Notes: generated by a model not told the origin, from the sequence alone. 64,000 nucleotides of DNA from a bacterium UBP8_UBA817 (GCA_945888435.1 CAMCZW010000002.1:14014-78013); one strand, 5' to 3'. Shown: positions 17,122 through 23,126, counted from the stretch's first letter. Made by a program: numbers and translations.

Positions 17122-17956
17122 AGATGTTTTTTGTATAGATGGCCTTGGCGTGATTGAGTTCTTCTAATAGCTCAGAAAGTGGGGGGATGTGATCGTCACG
17201 TTCAATCATGACAGAGACATCTCCCATTAATGGTACAGTTTTGGCAAATAGGTCCCATACTTCGTCTCTTACCGGGCGGTCATGGCTATCTAATACATAG
17301 GTGCCGTGATCCTGGTGGCCCGCAATATGATATTGGATGACGCGGTTAGCGGGGATGCCACGGACGTAGTCCATCGGGTCAAAATGGTGATTTCTGGAGG
17401 ATACATAGATATTGTTTACATCTAATAAAATTCCGCAATCGGCGGTTTCGGCAATGGCTTTTATAAATTCCCATTCTGTCATTTCGGATTCTTGAAACTC
17501 AACATAACTGGATAGGTTTTCGATGAGAAATGGAATGCCCATGGTGTCTTGGATGATGGCGATTTTTTTTGCGACATACTCTACGGTTTCTTGGGTGTAG
17601 GGCAGTGGAAGTAGGTTATGCATATGGGCGCCACCAACGCCGGCCCAGCAAAGATGGTCTGAAAACCAGGGGGGATTTAAATAGGAGAGGAGTGCTTTTA
17701 ATCTTTTGAGATGGGGTTTATCAAGTGCATCTGCGCTACCCAGTGAAAGAGAAACACCATGTGGAATGACTGTGTATTTTTCTTTAAATGGGGCGAGCGT
17801 ATGGGGGCCTTGTCCGCCGTCGAGCATATAGTTTTCCGATATAATTTCTAGCCAATCAACCTGGCCAGAAGACGACAAGAGCTCCTCATAATGAGGAGCT
17901 CTAAGTCCTAGTCCGAATCCTAAAAATGGAACATCAAATCGTTTTTTGATTGCCAT
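17108..17956 (-). CDS. DUF692 / MNIO (multinuclear non-heme iron oxidative) RiPP-modifying enzyme (HvfB/BufB/MbnB-like)
   Basis: 282 aa. TIM-barrel UPF0276 hallmarks: LGFGLGLR..H, WLEIISENY, FSDHLCW, LIEN, HIAGH. Confidence 0.8.
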   Translation of the reverse strand: MAIKKRFDVPFLGFGLGLRAPHYEELLSSSGQVDWLEIISENYMLDGGQGPHTLAPFKEKYTVIPHGVSLSLGSADALDKPHLKRLKALLSYLNPPWFSDHLCWAGVGGAHMHNLLPLPYTQETVEYVAKKIAIIQDTMGIPFLIENLSSYVEFQESEMTEWEFIKAIAETADCGILLDVNNIYVSSRNHHFDPMDYVRGIPANRVIQYHIAGHQDHGTYVLDSHDRPVRDEVWDLFAKTVPLMGDVSVMIERDDHIPPLSELLEELNHAKAIYTKNIYAPT

Positions 17957-17967
17957 TTAAATAGAAA

Positions 17968-18306
17968 TTATTTTTTTGCTGCTGGAGCTGCTTTCGCTTC
18001 TGCTGCTGGAGCTGTTTTCGCTGCTGGAGCTACTTTAACAGTTTTTGCAGTTGCTTTTGTTGCTGGAGCGGCTACTGCTGCTTTACATCCATTAGCGCCT
18101 TTGCATTTGTTTTTATCTGCTGGAGCTGCTTTCGCTTCTGCTGGAGCTACTGTTGTTGCTTTAACTTCAGTTGCTTTTGTTGTTGTTTTAACAGCAGTTG
18201 TTTTTGTTGCTTTTGCTGCTGCTGCTGGAGCGTCTGCTGCGTGTGCAACTCCGCCTAAAGATACTAAACCGGCTAACGCTAACATGACTAATTGAGACTT
18301 TTTCAT
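17968..18306 (-). CDS. Secreted RiPP precursor peptide (Sec signal peptide + A/K/T-rich low-complexity region with a single C-x5-C core)
   Basis: 112 aa. MKKSQLVMLALAGLVSLGGVAHA|ADAP...DKNKCKGANGCKAAV...AAKK. It sits 12 nt upstream of the MNIO gene on the same strand. The only two Cys are in KCKGANGCK. Confidence 0.7.
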   Translation of the reverse strand: MKKSQLVMLALAGLVSLGGVAHAADAPAAAAKATKTTAVKTTTKATEVKATTVAPAEAKAAPADKNKCKGANGCKAAVAAPATKATAKTVKVAPAAKTAPAAEAKAAPAAKK

Positions 18307-18447
18307 TGTATATCCTCCTGGGGAAATCGTTTAAGGTGTTCAGTTAGGCTGAACAATTGCTCACTATACTACTGCTATTCACAAACCTCAATTGCTGGAA
18401 TCAGGATATTTCTCTGTTACTTGTCATGTCTAGCTAACATTCATACA

Positions 18448-19701
18448 ATGGGCTTTATGGTAAGCATTTGTCTATATGAGGATGATGGGTATCGAGGGCT
18501 TCACCCCTTTACCTTTTTAAGGCCAGCCTATTCCTTATTATTAGGGGCTGGAACCTTGTATGATAAAGCGTCCGATTTTTTTAAATTTGGCAATTTGAGT
18601 CTTCATTGCAGACCTCTCCTTAAACCCTATTTGCGCCGATTATTTCCCCATCACATTATTAACGATATTAACTTAGGCGCTCCTTGTTTATTTGTGAATG
18701 GCCGCTTGGCAATGACGCAAACCGTATTTGATATTTTAAATGAGTCTTCTAAAAAAAATGACATGATTTTTACCCATCGTGGGCAAGTTGTGGCTTTATA
18801 TTTAAGGGATGACTCCTTACGACGAATGAAAGCTATTCTCGAAGCGGGGACACCATCTTCTCAGGACTTGATTAGCGAATTTCGTCAGACTTCGGCGGCG
18901 AAAGAGATGGATGATGTTGCCCTTATTACTTATCCATGGGATTTACTGGTGCATCAGCAACAAATTTTGAGCCAGGATTTTGACCGACTTTCTTTGGGGG
19001 GTATTGTCAAAGGGGATATGGCGCCTTATTCCGTCATTTATAACGAAACTCAAGTTTATATCGGCGAGCGGTGCCAGATTGAGGATTTTGCCTTGATTGA
19101 TGCTCGTAAAGGGCCTGTGATTTTGGCTGAAGATGTCATTGTTCAGTCTGGATCTCGATTGGAGGGGCCTTTATATATTGGACCTCATAGTCAAATTTTA
19201 GGGGGCTCTATTAAATCGTCTTCGATTGGCGCCCACTGTAAAATTGGCGGAGAGGTTTCTCATTCAATTATTCATGATTACTCTAATAAGGCCCATTATG
19301 GCTTTTTGGGACATTCGATTGTGGGACAGTGGGTTAATTTAGGGGCGGGGACGACTACTTCTAACCTTAAAAATACCTATGGAACCATTAAAGTGACCTG
19401 GAGCGATCATAAGTTGGATACTGGCCTTCAGTTTTTAGGTGCGATTCTTGGAGATCATGTGAAAGCCTCGATTGGGACTTTGTTTTCTGCGGGGACTCGT
19501 GTGGGATTTGGGACAACGCTACTGGGTAATATGATTCATGATCGGGATGTTCCGTTATTTAGGTGGGGACAGCCGTCTGCGTATGAGCCATATCCACTAG
19601 AAGCGTTTTTAACTGTGGCTAACCGAATGATGAGTCGGCGTAAACTTGAGATGAGTCCCGATGAATATGAATTAATTACGTCTTTATTTTTATCACAATG
19701 A
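18448..19701 (+). CDS. Sugar-nucleotidyltransferase-like protein with C-terminal left-handed beta-helix (hexapeptide repeats)
   Basis: ORF 18292..19701. The internal start MGFMVSICLYEDDGYRGLHPFTFLRP fits the N-terminus of this family. The C-terminus has hexapeptide repeats such as IGAHCKIGGEV. Confidence 0.6.
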   Translation: MGFMVSICLYEDDGYRGLHPFTFLRPAYSLLLGAGTLYDKASDFFKFGNLSLHCRPLLKPYLRRLFPHHIINDINLGAPCLFVNGRLAMTQTVFDILNESSKKNDMIFTHRGQVVALYLRDDSLRRMKAILEAGTPSSQDLISEFRQTSAAKEMDDVALITYPWDLLVHQQQILSQDFDRLSLGGIVKGDMAPYSVIYNETQVYIGERCQIEDFALIDARKGPVILAEDVIVQSGSRLEGPLYIGPHSQILGGSIKSSSIGAHCKIGGEVSHSIIHDYSNKAHYGFLGHSIVGQWVNLGAGTTTSNLKNTYGTIKVTWSDHKLDTGLQFLGAILGDHVKASIGTLFSAGTRVGFGTTLLGNMIHDRDVPLFRWGQPSAYEPYPLEAFLTVANRMMSRRKLEMSPDEYELITSLFLSQ

Positions 19702-21706: not shown

Positions 21707-22277
21707 CTGGTGCTCCTGGTGCGTGTGCTAATTTGCCAATAATTGCTCCCGCAATTGTCCATCCAATGGTGTAGTCTAAAATGGTAATGATCGTGTAGTT
21801 GATATCAAACCCAAAAAAGTTCCAATAGGGGACATGGCTTCCAAATCCAATTAAAAATCCGATTACGCCCACATAGCCAATATGGCTGTAGTAGTTCAAT
21901 CTAGCCACTCGATATAGTAGGGCCCCGGTGATTAACATTAAGAAAATTTGAGTGATAAAGCTGACTCCCATCATTTTGGTCATGCTCATGTCGCTTAATG
22001 ACGTACTTGGGATGATGCTGATAAAGGCGGATGTAGCACCGTCTGAATTGGCTTCAAAATCGTAAGGTAAAAAGTAGATGCCTTTTTGATGAGCATTGTC
22101 TTTTAATACTTGGGAGACTTGCATTTCGTTGATAAATTGATGGCTAGTGGCATTGTGCCAAGGTAAGACTGTCCATGAAATGATGCTCCAGATGAATAGT
22201 GACGCCCCACCAATGAGGCCTACTTTTAAAATATAACTCAACATATGTGTGCGATCTTTTAATAAAAAATTCATCAT
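21687..22277 (-). CDS. Integral membrane protein, unknown function
   Basis: 196 aa with several hydrophobic helices. Confidence 0.5.
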
Positions 22278-22606
22278 AAAATTATTCCCTTTTTTTTGCT
22301 TCTCATTTTCTTTTCCCAGTCCATGACTTGGTTGTAGCTGCCTTGCCCCCGATTTCTGATGCTGGTCGTATTAATATCGATGGTTTGGATATTAATGGTG
22401 TTTAAGTGGGCCGAAACTTTAGGGATTTTAATGCCGGTAATCATGATTTTGATCCGGGTGAGTTCTTCTTCTTCTCGTTTGACCTTGTGGGTCAATGAGT
22501 CGATTAAGACCTTGGCCATTTGGTTGAATTTTTTTAAGATTGGGAGAAGTGCTTTTGTTTGGTGTTTTTTAAGTTTTTGAGGGGCGCCTTTTTTTTGATT
22601 ATCCAT
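22274..22606 (-). CDS. Small basic hypothetical protein
   Basis: ORF 22274..22669. The later start MDNQKK avoids overlap with the upstream gene. Lys-rich. Confidence 0.4.
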   Translation of the reverse strand: MDNQKKGAPQKLKKHQTKALLPILKKFNQMAKVLIDSLTHKVKREEEELTRIKIMITGIKIPKVSAHLNTINIQTIDINTTSIRNRGQGSYNQVMDWEKKMRSKKKGIIL

Positions 22607-22607
22607 A

Positions 22608-23126
22608 TTATTGGTTTTGGCGCTTTTTCTCTTGTTCAATGATTTTACTGTAATACTCTTTTTGCTCATTAATTTGTTTAAGCTGACGTCTTAGTTGTCT
22701 TAATTTAGACATATTGTGGAAAAACTCTTTGATAATACCTCTTTCTTCTTCTTCGACATGGCTTTCATCGATCATGCCTTCGAGGGCTTCCATTTCGGCC
22801 ATCTTTTTTTCTAAGAGGGTAATGGTTTTCTTTTTCTTTTTTTTAACATCTTCGCTTTCTTCTGATGCTGCGGCGGCCCATATTTCGGCGGCGCCACTGG
22901 TGGGGGTTTCTGCTTTTTTGGTAGAGCTACTTTCACTAGAACTTTTGGTTTTAACACCTAATTGAGATCTGCTAACCCCTTGGGCTTCACTATCAAATAC
23001 TTGAGCTGCTTCTTTAAACGCATTGGTTGCAACTTCAATATTTGTCATTAACCGACTGACATTGGGACCTTCTGGTCCGTGATTGCCTTGTGGTGGGGGT
23101 GTTATGCCTTGAATTGGTCCTGCCAT
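22608..23126 (-). CDS. Hypothetical protein with poly-Lys stretch and coiled-coil C-terminus
   Basis: 172 aa. Contains KKKKKK and an acidic coiled-coil EMEALEGMIDESHVEEEE. Confidence 0.45.
   Translation of the reverse strand: MAGPIQGITPPPQGNHGPEGPNVSRLMTNIEVATNAFKEAAQVFDSEAQGVSRSQLGVKTKSSSESSSTKKAETPTSGAAEIWAAAASEESEDVKKKKKKTITLLEKKMAEMEALEGMIDESHVEEEERGIIKEFFHNMSKLRQLRRQLKQINEQKEYYSKIIEQEKKRQNQ

What the first reader, a model, noticed from the sequence alone, without database searches (positions are those of the whole stretch)
17968..18306. Atypical precursor: histone-tail-like A/K/T-rich peptide with only one C-x5-C pair
Known DUF2282 bufferin precursors carry several Cys (typically four or more), and HvfA carries EGKCG repeats. 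This precursor has a standard Sec signal (cleavage after AHA) but is otherwise low-complexity. It consists of AKATKTTAVKTTTK-type repeats and ends AAKK, with a single KCKGANGCK core. That implies at most two modified Cys, and perhaps a single metal site. It may be a new precursor subclass, or a peptide whose polycationic tails have a second role.
Basis: partly seen in the sequence, partly recalled or inferred. Interest (0 to 1): 0.75.

Follow-up and report, generated by a model that had tools for sequence, protein, structure and literature searches.

The report
Minimal two-cysteine bufferin-type copper peptide precursor
This small gene encodes an exported, alanine/lysine/threonine-rich peptide with just two cysteines. 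It is the shortest natural member of a little-described branch of the known bufferin/captophorin copper-binding peptides, so it is a useful variant and not a new kind of system.

Summary
Window 17968..18306(-) encodes a 112-aa peptide with a Sec-type signal (AHA|A), only ten residue types in the mature part, and two Cys in KNKCKGANGCK. It heads a canonical bufA-bufB-bufC-bufD operon: precursor, MNIO above the NCBIfam BufB cut-off, DUF2063 partner, DoxX. It matches no precursor family model (DUF2282, BufA2, EGKCG).

It is not an orphan. The syntenic orthologue (MNIO about 80% identical) has two KNKCKG[GA]NGC units. Relatives at 59-69% carry one to seven C-x5-C hexads (CSGKDG, CKSKEG, CNGKNG) between A/K/T-rich linkers. 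Their MNIOs form a clade (100/100 bootstrap), probably in Candidatus Margulisiibacteriota.

The hexad equals the CKGxNxC repeat of the Buf2 core. Both Cys are followed by Lys, and the MNIO has Asp after the catalytic Asp, the published "Cys-Lys" signature. The core shows 5 synonymous and 0 non-synonymous codon differences against the orthologue, while the tails diverge.

Best reading: both Cys become 5-thiooxazoles, the peptide is exported, and it forms one copper site on a disordered polycationic chain. A second role for the tails is untested. Verdict: new variant of a known kind; interest about 0.35.

The parts
17968..18306 (-). Precursor gene (bufA-like), 112 codons plus stop
   Evidence: ORF and translation. 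Identical in L082 and L094-L099 (L099 cut at the contig end). Orthologue in L101.
18238..18306 (-). Sec-type signal peptide, residues 1-23 (MKKSQLVMLALAGLVSLGGVAHA), predicted cleavage AHA|AD
   Evidence: Read from the sequence: n-region KK, 15-residue hydrophobic h-region, A-x-A c-region. The orthologue has MKKSQVLMLALAGLVSLAGVATA|E. The same layout occurs in all clade precursors. No SignalP run.
18082..18114 (-). Cys core K65-N-K-C68-K-G-A-N-G-C74-K75; the predicted modification site and metal site
   Evidence: C68, C74 and K75, plus one Lys in the N-terminal linker, are the only invariant columns among 8 clade precursors (numbering shifted by 1). 5 synonymous and 0 non-synonymous codon differences against orthologue unit 2. 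Aligns to the CysIV-CysV hexad of a local Buf2 HMM.
18115..18237 (-). N-terminal A/K/T-rich low-complexity linker (residues 24-64), containing a 27-nt (9-aa) tandem repeat
   Evidence: Tandem repeat at 18151-18209, period 27, 2.2 copies. AF2 pLDDT below 50. Not alignable to the orthologue's linker except by composition.
17971..18081 (-). C-terminal A/K/P/T-rich low-complexity tail (residues 76-112), containing a 24-nt tandem repeat and ending AAKK
   Evidence: Tandem repeat at 17977-18026, period 24, 2.1 copies. The orthologue has a different (AAPAAxAxK)n tail of variable length: 122 aa against 140 aa between strains.
17108..17956 (-). MNIO enzyme (BufB-type), 282 aa
   Evidence: PF05114 E=3.9e-105. 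NF050167 MNIO_BufB 343.9 bits, above the cut-off of 310. Keeps 67 of 68 columns that are at least 95% conserved, including all conserved H/D/E. ERDDH motif: Asp after the catalytic Asp.
16315..17121 (-). DUF2063 partner protein (BufC/PME1-type), 268 aa; overlaps the MNIO stop by 14 nt
   Evidence: PF09836 54.1 bits, above the cut-off of 27.2. NF050145 HvfC 58.3 bits, below the cut-off of 142, but aligned over residues 49-260.
15849..16295 (-). DoxX membrane protein (BufD/HvfX-like), 148 aa
   Evidence: PF07681 72.9 bits. NF050144 HvfX 78.6 bits, just under the cut-off of 80. Present in the same position in the orthologue and in most clade loci.
18363..18391 (-). Candidate sigma-70-like promoter (TTGAGG-17-TATAGT) in the divergent intergenic region
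   Evidence: Consensus scan; not above the number expected by chance. The TATAGT box and the SD are conserved in the orthologue's upstream region. Weak evidence.

Best explanation
The ORF is the substrate (bufA-like precursor) of a bufferin/captophorin-type RiPP operon of the 'Cys-Lys' kind, reduced to a single C-K-G-x-N-G-C-K unit.

Proposed mechanism:
1. In the cytoplasm the MNIO-DUF2063 heterodimer binds the unit and oxidises both Cys (C68, C74) to 5-thiooxazoles, giving -4 Da each and -8 Da in total.
2. The Sec signal peptide takes the peptide across the inner membrane and is cut after AHA.
3. The 89-residue mature peptide stays disordered. Its two thiooxazoles, five residues apart, form one copper site that buffers periplasmic copper.
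4. The A/K/T/P-rich segments act as flexible, soluble, polycationic spacers. Their composition matters, but their sequence does not.

Shown here: gene order, enzyme family, Cys-Lys signature on both enzyme and substrate, conservation of the core, and divergence of the tails.

Inferred from the characterised Buf1, Buf2, fontiphorin and oxazolin systems: the thiooxazole chemistry, export, copper binding and stoichiometry.
For: 1. Operon: precursor, then MNIO (NF050167 BufB equivalog above its cut-off), then DUF2063, then DoxX, in the strict bufABCD order. PMC12452194 section 13 describes this order as conserved.

2. The MNIO looks intact: 67 of 68 highly conserved columns are kept, including all conserved H/D/E.

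3. Specificity match. PMC13097082 section 14 reports Phe after the catalytic Asp in Lys-Cys (EGKCG) MNIOs and Asp in Cys-Lys (Buf2) MNIOs.
- The window enzyme has ERDDH, while the EGKCG-type structure 3BWW has ERDFN.
- In my own set of 40 six-Cys Buf2 loci with Asp-Asp, 96% of CysII-V are followed by Lys.
- Both window Cys are followed by Lys.

4. The unit equals the Buf2 hexad. The Buf2 HMM consensus is C-x5-C-x5-C-x6-C-x5-C, with CKGxNxCKG. The window core aligns to CysIV-CysV and scores 4.2 bits, against a maximum of 0.2 in 200 composition-preserving shuffles. In Buf2 the central, Lys-followed Cys are the modified ones (PMC11626156, section 7).

5. Conservation:
- The syntenic orthologue has two KNKCKG[GA]NGC units.
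- The core shows 5 synonymous and 0 non-synonymous codon differences.
- C-x5-C-K is, apart from one linker Lys, the only invariant feature across 8 clade precursors.
- The MNIOs of these loci form a clade with 100/100 NJ bootstrap.

6. Two Cys is a plausible functional minimum. FonBC modified a two-repeat peptide (-8 Da) but not a one-repeat peptide (PMC13097082, section 12). Buf1 binds copper with two thiooxazoles (PMC11626156).

7. The mature peptide has no His, Met or aromatic residues, so the Cys pair is the only candidate ligand set. The AF2 model shows no fold (pLDDT 47).
Against: - No chemistry, expression or metal data exist for this peptide or for any member of its clade.
- The peptide fails the BufA2 model (no hit; true Buf2 precursors score 78-82 bits). 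It also lacks the CysI/CysVI disulfide and the folded domain that shape the metal site in Buf1 and Buf2, so affinity and metal preference could differ.
- The residue after the second Cys is Gln, not Lys, in the orthologue, and Ser, Asn, Gly or Ala in several clade members whose MNIOs still have Asp (Glu in one). The Asp/Lys rule is therefore loose here.
- No copper-linked regulator or transporter lies next to the operon.
- One copper per 89-residue peptide is a poor buffer unless the peptide is highly expressed.
- The precursors were found through their MNIOs, so the link to MNIO genes is partly circular. The single context-free search was narrow.
Confidence: 0.7

Rival explanations
1. The peptide is modified as proposed, but copper buffering is not its main job. 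The polycationic disordered tails give it another role. They might tether it to the anionic envelope (LPS, outer-membrane inner leaflet, peptidoglycan) as a surface-bound metal or redox site. It might act as a periplasmic chaperone of the basic Asr type. It might be released as a cationic, metal-loaded antimicrobial.
For: Net charge +12 and pI 10.1, with 19% Lys. A/K-rich composition is kept across the clade, and K-rich C-termini (KAKKK, KEAKK, KEATKK, KATQK) recur. The window and its orthologue have unusually long tails (38 and 70 residues after the last Cys) for a single or double site. L091's precursor gave a very weak hit to the Asr acid-shock basic protein model (E=1.2).
Against: The tails differ in sequence, repeat type and length even between strains whose MNIOs are 97.5% identical (122 aa against 140 aa). 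That fits weakly constrained spacers better than a specific binding surface. L086 ends without any Lys-rich tail. No envelope, export or immunity genes accompany the operon. All characterised relatives act in copper tolerance (PMC11626156, PMC13097082).
Confidence: 0.15
2. The ORF is a decayed remnant of a multi-Cys Buf2-like precursor. It is no longer a productive substrate, and the MNIO either works on a precursor encoded elsewhere or is itself on the way out.
For: It has the fewest Cys of any clade member seen (2, against 3-8). Low-complexity repeats have expanded around the core. PMC12452194 notes that bufferin precursor genes can lie away from MNIO genes.
Against: The core is under purifying selection (5 synonymous, 0 non-synonymous). 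The signal peptide and SD are conserved. MNIO, partner and DoxX are all full length, and the MNIO keeps 67 of 68 conserved columns. No other C-x5-C-K, CKGxNxC or GKCG small ORF exists in the 64-kb window. The Margulisbacteria relative P0022 also has a low-Cys precursor (3 Cys), so low counts recur in intact operons.
Confidence: 0.1
3. The MNIO performs a different reaction on this substrate than thiooxazole formation, for example another Cys-directed oxidation or a cross-link between the two Cys-derived groups. The product would then not be a captophorin-type metallophore.
For: MNIOs catalyse many different reactions (PMC12452194 introduction and section 13). This clade is a separate branch at no more than 59% identity to Buf2-associated enzymes. 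The substrate lacks the folded context of Buf1 and Buf2.
Against: The enzyme scores above the curated cut-off of the BufB equivalog model and far below those of ApyH, MbnB and ChrH. PMC13097082 reports 5-thiooxazole for three further members of the MNIO-PME1 (DUF2063-partner) group and argues that the whole group makes it. The DUF2063 partner and signal-peptide precursor correlate with that group (PMC12452194).
Confidence: 0.05

Closest known systems
Bufferin 2 (BufA2, BUF_6/12Cys; NCBIfam NF050166) with BufB2/BufC2 of Caulobacter vibrioides; the 'Cys-Lys' captophorin group
   Same: Sec signal peptide. Precursor directly before an MNIO and a DUF2063 partner. The repeat unit C-K-G-x-N-x-C, with Lys after the modified Cys. 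MNIO with Asp after the catalytic Asp. The closest enzymes outside the window's own clade (50-59% identity) are Buf2-associated.
   Different: One hexad bracket (2 Cys) in place of five Cys plus CysVI. No CysI-CysVI disulfide. No C-terminal folded part. Long A/K/T-rich disordered linkers. No hit to NF050166. AF2 pLDDT 47. DoxX is present here but absent from the C. vibrioides buf2 cluster (PMC11626156).
Hexad-repeat precursors next to the clade's MNIOs (L001, L084, L086, L087, L089, L091, L101, L102); not described as a family in the literature I could search
   Same: Same signal-peptide style (MKKxQL...). A/K/T-rich linker. C-x5-C hexads (CSGKDG, CKSKEG, CNGKNG, CKGxNG). K-rich C-terminus in most. 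Same operon. MNIOs form one clade with 100/100 bootstrap.
   Different: They carry 3-8 Cys (1-7 hexad brackets); the window has the minimum, one bracket. The window and its orthologue have the longest tails.
Bufferin 1 (BufA1, DUF2282/PF10048)
   Same: Two thiooxazoles forming one copper site is the Buf1 stoichiometry. Same bufABCD operon with DoxX (PMC11626156).
   Different: Buf1 is a folded small protein with four conserved Cys, including a structural disulfide. There is no DUF2282 hit here. Residues around the Buf1 Cys are not Lys-biased (PMC13097082).
Oxazolin/HvfA, fontiphorin, gonophorin (Buf_EGKCG, 'Lys-Cys' group)
   Same: Short Cys-containing repeats in a largely unstructured, signal-peptide-bearing precursor. 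MNIO-DUF2063-DoxX operon. A minimal substrate of two repeats (PMC13097082).
   Different: Their motif is E-G-K-C-G with period 5, Lys before Cys and Gly after. Their MNIO has Phe after the catalytic Asp (3BWW ERDFN). FonBC does not process NACKG-type, charged-after-Cys substrates (PMC13097082, section 13).
'CxxxxC' signal-peptide precursor family of Antoine et al. 2025 (PMC12452194)
   Same: A small signal-peptide precursor with a two-Cys motif in a RiPP-MNIO-DUF2063-DoxX cluster.
   Different: The spacing is C-x4-C, not C-x5-C. 54% of those clusters carry a Lactamase_B_2 gene, which is absent here. All 76 members are from Pseudomonadati, whereas the window appears to be Margulisiibacteriota (Bacillati). 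The HMM was not available to test.

Membership tests
Bufferin/captophorin biosynthetic cluster (MNIO-PME1 system) | MNIO of the BufB type | tested here: met
   NF050167 MNIO_BufB 343.9 bits against a cut-off of 310; PF05114 E=3.9e-105. 67 of 68 conserved columns kept.
Bufferin/captophorin biosynthetic cluster (MNIO-PME1 system) | DUF2063 (PME1) partner gene immediately after the MNIO gene | tested here: met
   PF09836 54.1 bits, above the cut-off of 27.2. The genes overlap by 14 nt. The HvfC equivalog model is below its cut-off (58 against 142).
Bufferin/captophorin biosynthetic cluster (MNIO-PME1 system) | Cys-containing precursor under 200 aa with a Sec signal peptide, encoded directly before the MNIO | tested here: met
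   112 aa, 2 Cys, 11-nt gap to the MNIO start. The signal peptide was judged from the sequence only.
Bufferin/captophorin biosynthetic cluster (MNIO-PME1 system) | Cys converted to 5-thiooxazole; copper binding and copper tolerance | not testable with these tools
   Needs co-expression with MS/NMR and metal-binding assays.
BufA2 / BUF_6/12Cys (NF050166) | Match to the family HMM above its cut-off (60 bits) | tested here: not met
   No hit at E<=10 for the window peptide. True Buf2 precursors score 82.2 and 77.8 bits. The orthologue L101 scores 15.8 bits. Local Buf2 HMM: 4.2 bits.
BufA2 / BUF_6/12Cys (NF050166) | Six (or twelve) conserved Cys, with CysI-CysVI as a disulfide in a folded small protein | tested here: not met
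   Two Cys only. AF2 pLDDT 47 with no secondary structure (single sequence).
BufA2 / BUF_6/12Cys (NF050166) | C-K-G-x-N-x-C hexad unit with Lys after the modified Cys | tested here: met
   CKGANGCK aligns to the CysIV-CysV stretch 'naCkGqnsCKG' of the Buf2 HMM consensus.
'Cys-Lys' captophorin group (Gadgil et al. 2026) | Multiple Cys-Lys motifs in the precursor | tested here: met
   Both Cys are followed by Lys; two is the minimum for 'multiple'.
'Cys-Lys' captophorin group (Gadgil et al. 2026) | Asp, not Phe, after the catalytic Asp of the MNIO | tested here: met
   ERDDH in the window against ERDFN in 3BWW. Asp at this site in 45 of the 54 loci classed as Buf2-associated, and none has Phe.
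BufA1 / DUF2282 | Pfam DUF2282 match; four conserved Cys | tested here: not met
   No Pfam hit at E<=1; 2 Cys.
Buf_EGKCG / oxazolin (HvfA) | Repeated E-G-K-C-G motifs; MNIO with Phe after the catalytic Asp | tested here: not met
   No GKCG in the peptide. The MNIO has Asp-Asp. The HvfB model scores 261.7, below its cut-off of 360.
'CxxxxC' precursor family (Antoine et al. 2025) | Conserved C-x4-C motif; family HMM | tested here: not met
   The spacing here is C-x5-C. The authors' HMM is not in the libraries available, so only the motif was tested.

The most novel reading that the evidence does not exclude
The clade that contains this locus, apparently Margulisiibacteriota, has turned the folded Buf2 domain into an intrinsically disordered, polycationic string of autonomous C-K-G-x-N-G-C units. 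One unit alone would be sufficient for recognition by the MNIO-DUF2063 pair, with no leader and no fold, and sufficient for metal binding. The lysine-rich tails would do a second job, such as holding the thiooxazole site on the anionic envelope or delivering metal to a surface. Under this reading the window peptide is a natural single-site, leaderless minimal substrate.
Probability: 0.15. Interest if true: 0.6.

Novelty: new variant of a known kind. Interest (0 to 1): 0.35.

Why it matters
Bufferins/captophorins are the largest group of MNIO-made peptides and a widespread copper defence. The studied ones are either folded small proteins (Buf1, Buf2) or long EGKCG repeat arrays.

A natural precursor with exactly two target Cys and nothing else that could bind metal would be a clean model. 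It could be used to ask what the enzyme pair actually recognises, whether two thiooxazoles five residues apart make a complete copper site without a protein scaffold, and what the Asp/Lys enzyme-substrate contact contributes.

The finding also extends the system to an uncultured phylum near the Cyanobacteria. It shows that current precursor HMMs, and protein collections that lack these low-complexity peptides, miss this branch.

It does not reveal a new kind of system. The published surveys already note many unclassified 1-18-Cys precursors.

Tried and rejected
- **Protein homology searches with the peptide found nothing.** The word-indexed search gave none at E<=10. Exhaustive phmmer against 1.84 billion representatives gave none at E<=0.001.
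- **These nulls are weak.** An exact look-up shows that the window peptide and three relatives are not in that collection at all. L084's peptide is present but was still not detected.
- Searches used 17968-18303(-), which drops Met1 and not the stop codon. The look-up was repeated correctly with the same answer. The AF2 model and alignment lack only Met1.
- **Metagenome scan with the DUF2063 partner** found no relative.
The orthologue's main contig had no DNA available. Its sequence was recovered through a cluster member (with an assembly gap) and a degenerate DNA pattern.
- **Published supplements.** Searching the supplements of PMC12452194 and PMC13097082 for the core and hexad strings found nothing. 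The held files are cut, and the file labelled Table S2 is a genome count table, not the peptide list, so this does not show the peptides are unreported.
- **Rfam** found nothing in the window.
- **QueE-like radical SAM gene downstream of DoxX.** I considered it as a possible fifth operon member and rejected it, because in the orthologous locus it lies on the opposite strand.
- **Chlamydiae as the source.** I considered this because of a 56% Chlamydiales MNIO hit. I rejected it because the named DnaB relatives are Margulisiibacteriota.
- **Regulator site.** No conserved operator-like palindrome was found upstream.

Full report
**1. Observation**

The ORF at 17968..18306 on the minus strand is real and is as described. 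It encodes 112 residues. An AGGAGG ribosome-binding site lies 7 nt upstream of the ATG.

The N-terminus has the layout of a Sec signal peptide: MKK, then a 15-residue hydrophobic stretch, then AHA|AD. The 89-residue mature part uses only ten residue types. It is A 39%, K 19%, T 15%, P 8% and V 7%, with net charge +12 and pI 10.1. It has no His, Met or aromatic residues.

It has exactly two Cys, C68 and C74, in KNKCKGANGCK. The flanks contain 27-nt and 24-nt tandem repeats. A single-sequence AlphaFold2 model has mean pLDDT 47 and no secondary structure.

**2. Context**

Eleven bases downstream the operon continues on the same strand:
- an MNIO (PF05114, E=3.9e-105; NCBIfam MNIO_BufB 343.9 bits, above the curated cut-off of 310);
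- a DUF2063 partner that overlaps the MNIO stop by 14 nt;
- a DoxX protein.

This is the strict bufA-bufB-bufC(-bufD) order described for bufferins (PMC12452194, section 13).

The MNIO keeps 67 of the 68 alignment columns that are at least 95% conserved among 89 relatives. This includes every conserved His, Asp and Glu.

The QueE-like radical SAM gene that follows DoxX is on the other strand in the orthologous locus. It is therefore not part of the system.

The peptide hits no Pfam family. In NCBIfam it has only a noise-level match to CopL.

**3. Source organism**

The window carries no rRNA or other Rfam match. The DnaB protein encoded at 12050..13411 has named relatives at 57-61% identity that are nearly all Candidatus Margulisiibacteriota. 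One MNIO relative at 59% identity is also annotated as Margulisbacteria.

Contigs carrying an MNIO at least 90% identical (identical at the nucleotide level in the loci compared) were assembled from several lake-type metagenomes and one NCBI MAG, GCA_947493445.1. All have a precursor gene with zero nucleotide differences. The phylum assignment is an inference from best hits, not a phylogeny.

**4. Relatives of the peptide**

Direct protein searches found nothing. The collection does not contain the window peptide or three of its relatives, so those nulls say little. I therefore reached the relatives through the enzyme.

*Closest orthologue.* Its MNIO is about 80% identical. Its locus is fully syntenic: msrB, pgi, glmU-like, precursor, MNIO, DUF2063, DoxX, rSAM, a 516-aa gene, dnaB. 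Its DNA was recovered from L101 and L092.

Its precursor has nearly the same signal peptide. It carries two copies of EKNKCKG[GA]NGCQTKAAPA, giving four Cys. A long (AAPAAxAxK)n tail follows.

Against the second unit, the ten core codons KNKCKGANGC differ at five synonymous positions and at no non-synonymous position. The linkers cannot be aligned except by composition. The tail length differs (122 aa against 140 aa) between strains whose MNIOs are 97.5% identical.

*More distant relatives.* Their MNIOs are 59-69% identical. Their precursors have the same plan: signal peptide, A/K/T-rich linker, C-x5-C hexads, and usually a K-rich end.

| Locus | Cys units |
|---|---|
| L087 | two SCNGKNGC units plus SCNGKDHKASC (C-x7-C) |
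| L001 | CSGK[DE]GC, three times |
| L086 | (CSGKDG) run, 8 Cys |
| L089, L091 | CKSKEGCKSK |
| L084 | ACKSKAGCK plus three more Cys |
| L102 (Margulisbacteria) | ACKGKASCKSK plus one more Cys |

In a MAFFT alignment of eight of them, the only invariant columns are one Lys plus C68, C74 and K75 of the window peptide.

The MNIOs of these loci form one clade, separate from 79 mostly proteobacterial enzymes (NJ bootstrap 100/100). All sampled enzymes at 59% identity or less for which a precursor could be called sit next to Buf2-type or Buf2-like precursors.

**5. Relation to Buf2**

An HMM built from 48 six-Cys Buf2 precursors in the fetched loci has the consensus vkCvgvnaCkGksaCktaenaCkGqnsCKGqG...C. 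The Buf2 core is thus itself a run of C-K-G-x-N-x hexads.

The window core aligns to the CysIV-CysV bracket. It scores 4.2 bits, which is low but above all 200 composition-preserving shuffles (maximum 0.2). The orthologue's two units align to CysI-II and CysIV-V at 16 bits.

The curated BufA2 model (NF050166, cut-off 60) gives:
- 78-82 bits for true Buf2 precursors;
- 15.8 bits for the orthologue;
- 17.7 bits for L086;
- nothing for the window peptide.

So the peptide is not a member of the BufA2 family as defined. It uses the same repeat unit and has very probably descended from it.

**6. Enzyme-substrate match**

Gadgil et al. (PMC13097082, sections 7, 13, 14) sort captophorin precursors into DUF2282, Lys-Cys (EGKCG) and Cys-Lys groups. 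They report that the residue after the catalytic Asp is Phe in Lys-Cys enzymes and Asp in Cys-Lys enzymes, where it is modelled to contact the substrate Lys.

The window MNIO reads ERDDH. The EGKCG-type structure 3BWW reads ERDFN at the aligned position.

In my own set, 45 of the 54 loci classed as Buf2-associated have Asp there and none has Phe. In the 40 six-Cys precursors paired with Asp-Asp enzymes, 96% of CysII-V are followed by Lys.

Both window Cys are followed by Lys. In C. vibrioides Buf2 the central Cys carry the -4 Da modification, while CysI and CysVI form a disulfide (PMC11626156, section 7). In the Buf2 loci sampled here those central Cys are the Lys-followed ones. The window peptide has no equivalent of CysI or CysVI.

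**7. Mechanism**

*Shown here:* the operon, the enzyme class, the Cys-Lys signature on both enzyme and substrate, purifying selection on the core, and free drift of the tails.

*Inferred from characterised systems:*
- The MNIO-DUF2063 heterodimer oxidises both Cys to 5-thiooxazoles in the cytoplasm, for an expected -8 Da.
- The peptide is exported by Sec and cleaved after AHA.
- The two heterocycles form one copper site.

Two further published results fit this reading. Two thiooxazoles per copper is the Buf1 arrangement (PMC11626156). FonBC modified a two-repeat peptide but not a one-repeat peptide (PMC13097082, section 12), so two Cys may be the working minimum.

The tails are most simply disordered, soluble, cationic spacers. 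A second role, such as envelope tethering, is possible but untested.

**8. Rivals**

- Another primary function carried by the tails (0.15).
- A decayed, non-productive substrate (0.10). This is countered by selection on the core, the intact enzymes, and the lack of any other candidate ORF in the 64 kb.
- A different MNIO chemistry (0.05).
- A chance ORF. This is excluded by conservation of the signal peptide, SD and core across about 20% enzyme divergence.

**9. Novelty and score**

The system is a known kind. PMC12452194 (section 15) already states that hundreds of unclassified signal-peptide ORFs with 1-18 Cys precede bufferin-type MNIOs.

What is new:
- recognition of a coherent hexad-repeat, domain-less, disordered branch of the Cys-Lys group in an uncultured phylum;
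- the window peptide as its one-unit minimum.

I found no mention of this branch in the papers or held supplements I could search, but those supplements are incomplete.

I rate it a new variant of a known kind with interest 0.35. It is useful as a minimal model substrate but would not surprise a specialist.

**Limits**

- The relatives were found through their MNIOs.
- The only context-free test was one narrow DNA pattern. It gave one true hit, next to an MNIO, and one chance hit inside a membrane-protein gene.
- There is no experimental evidence for any member of the clade.

Noticed in passing
window 15002..15652 (-): A QueE-like radical SAM gene lies directly after DoxX. Its QueE model scores are weak (61 bits against cut-offs of 200 or more). 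In the orthologous locus it is on the opposite strand to the operon, so it is probably unrelated.
   Followed up: partly
window 13392..14957 (+): A 521-aa protein with a signal-peptide-like N-terminus lies between dnaB and the radical SAM gene. It is conserved in the orthologue (516 aa), which has no Pfam hit on record.
   Followed up: no
window 22274..23126 (-): Two overlapping Lys/Glu-rich low-complexity ORFs (131 and 172 aa, one with a run of seven Lys). The orthologous locus has two small genes without Pfam hits in the same position.
   Followed up: no
window 18292..18460 (+): The mechanical ORF for the GlmU-like gene (TIGR03991) starts at a TTG that overlaps the precursor's start codon. 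Gene calls on contigs of the same population start about 156 nt later (417 aa), and the family match begins at residue 58. This leaves a divergent intergenic region of about 140 nt. Its TATAGT box is conserved in the orthologue.
   Followed up: partly
L007, L061, L074, L075, L079 (Gammaproteobacteria MAGs): These Buf2-like precursors have central Cys mostly followed by Ala, not Lys. They pair with MNIOs that have Gly, not Asp, after the catalytic Asp. This co-variation fits the published specificity model.
   Followed up: partly
L068:3697-3888 (Coxiellaceae UBA6002) and L049:3479-3928 (Chlamydiales MAG): Unusual precursors precede other MNIOs. L068 has a 63-aa lipoprotein-type ORF with 16 Cys. 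L049 has a lipoprotein-type Buf2-like precursor with a His-rich N-terminal region.
   Followed up: no
L092:496-786, L101:496-918, and the P0002 locus: The orthologue's precursor is 140 aa in one strain and 122 aa in another whose MNIO is 97.5% identical. One assembly has a run of N inside the gene. The low-complexity tail is length-polymorphic and hard to assemble.
   Followed up: partly
protein collection: The window peptide and three of four relatives tested are absent from the 15-billion-protein collection, although gene calls for them appear in the contig tables. Protein-level searches therefore cannot see most of this family.
   Followed up: yes
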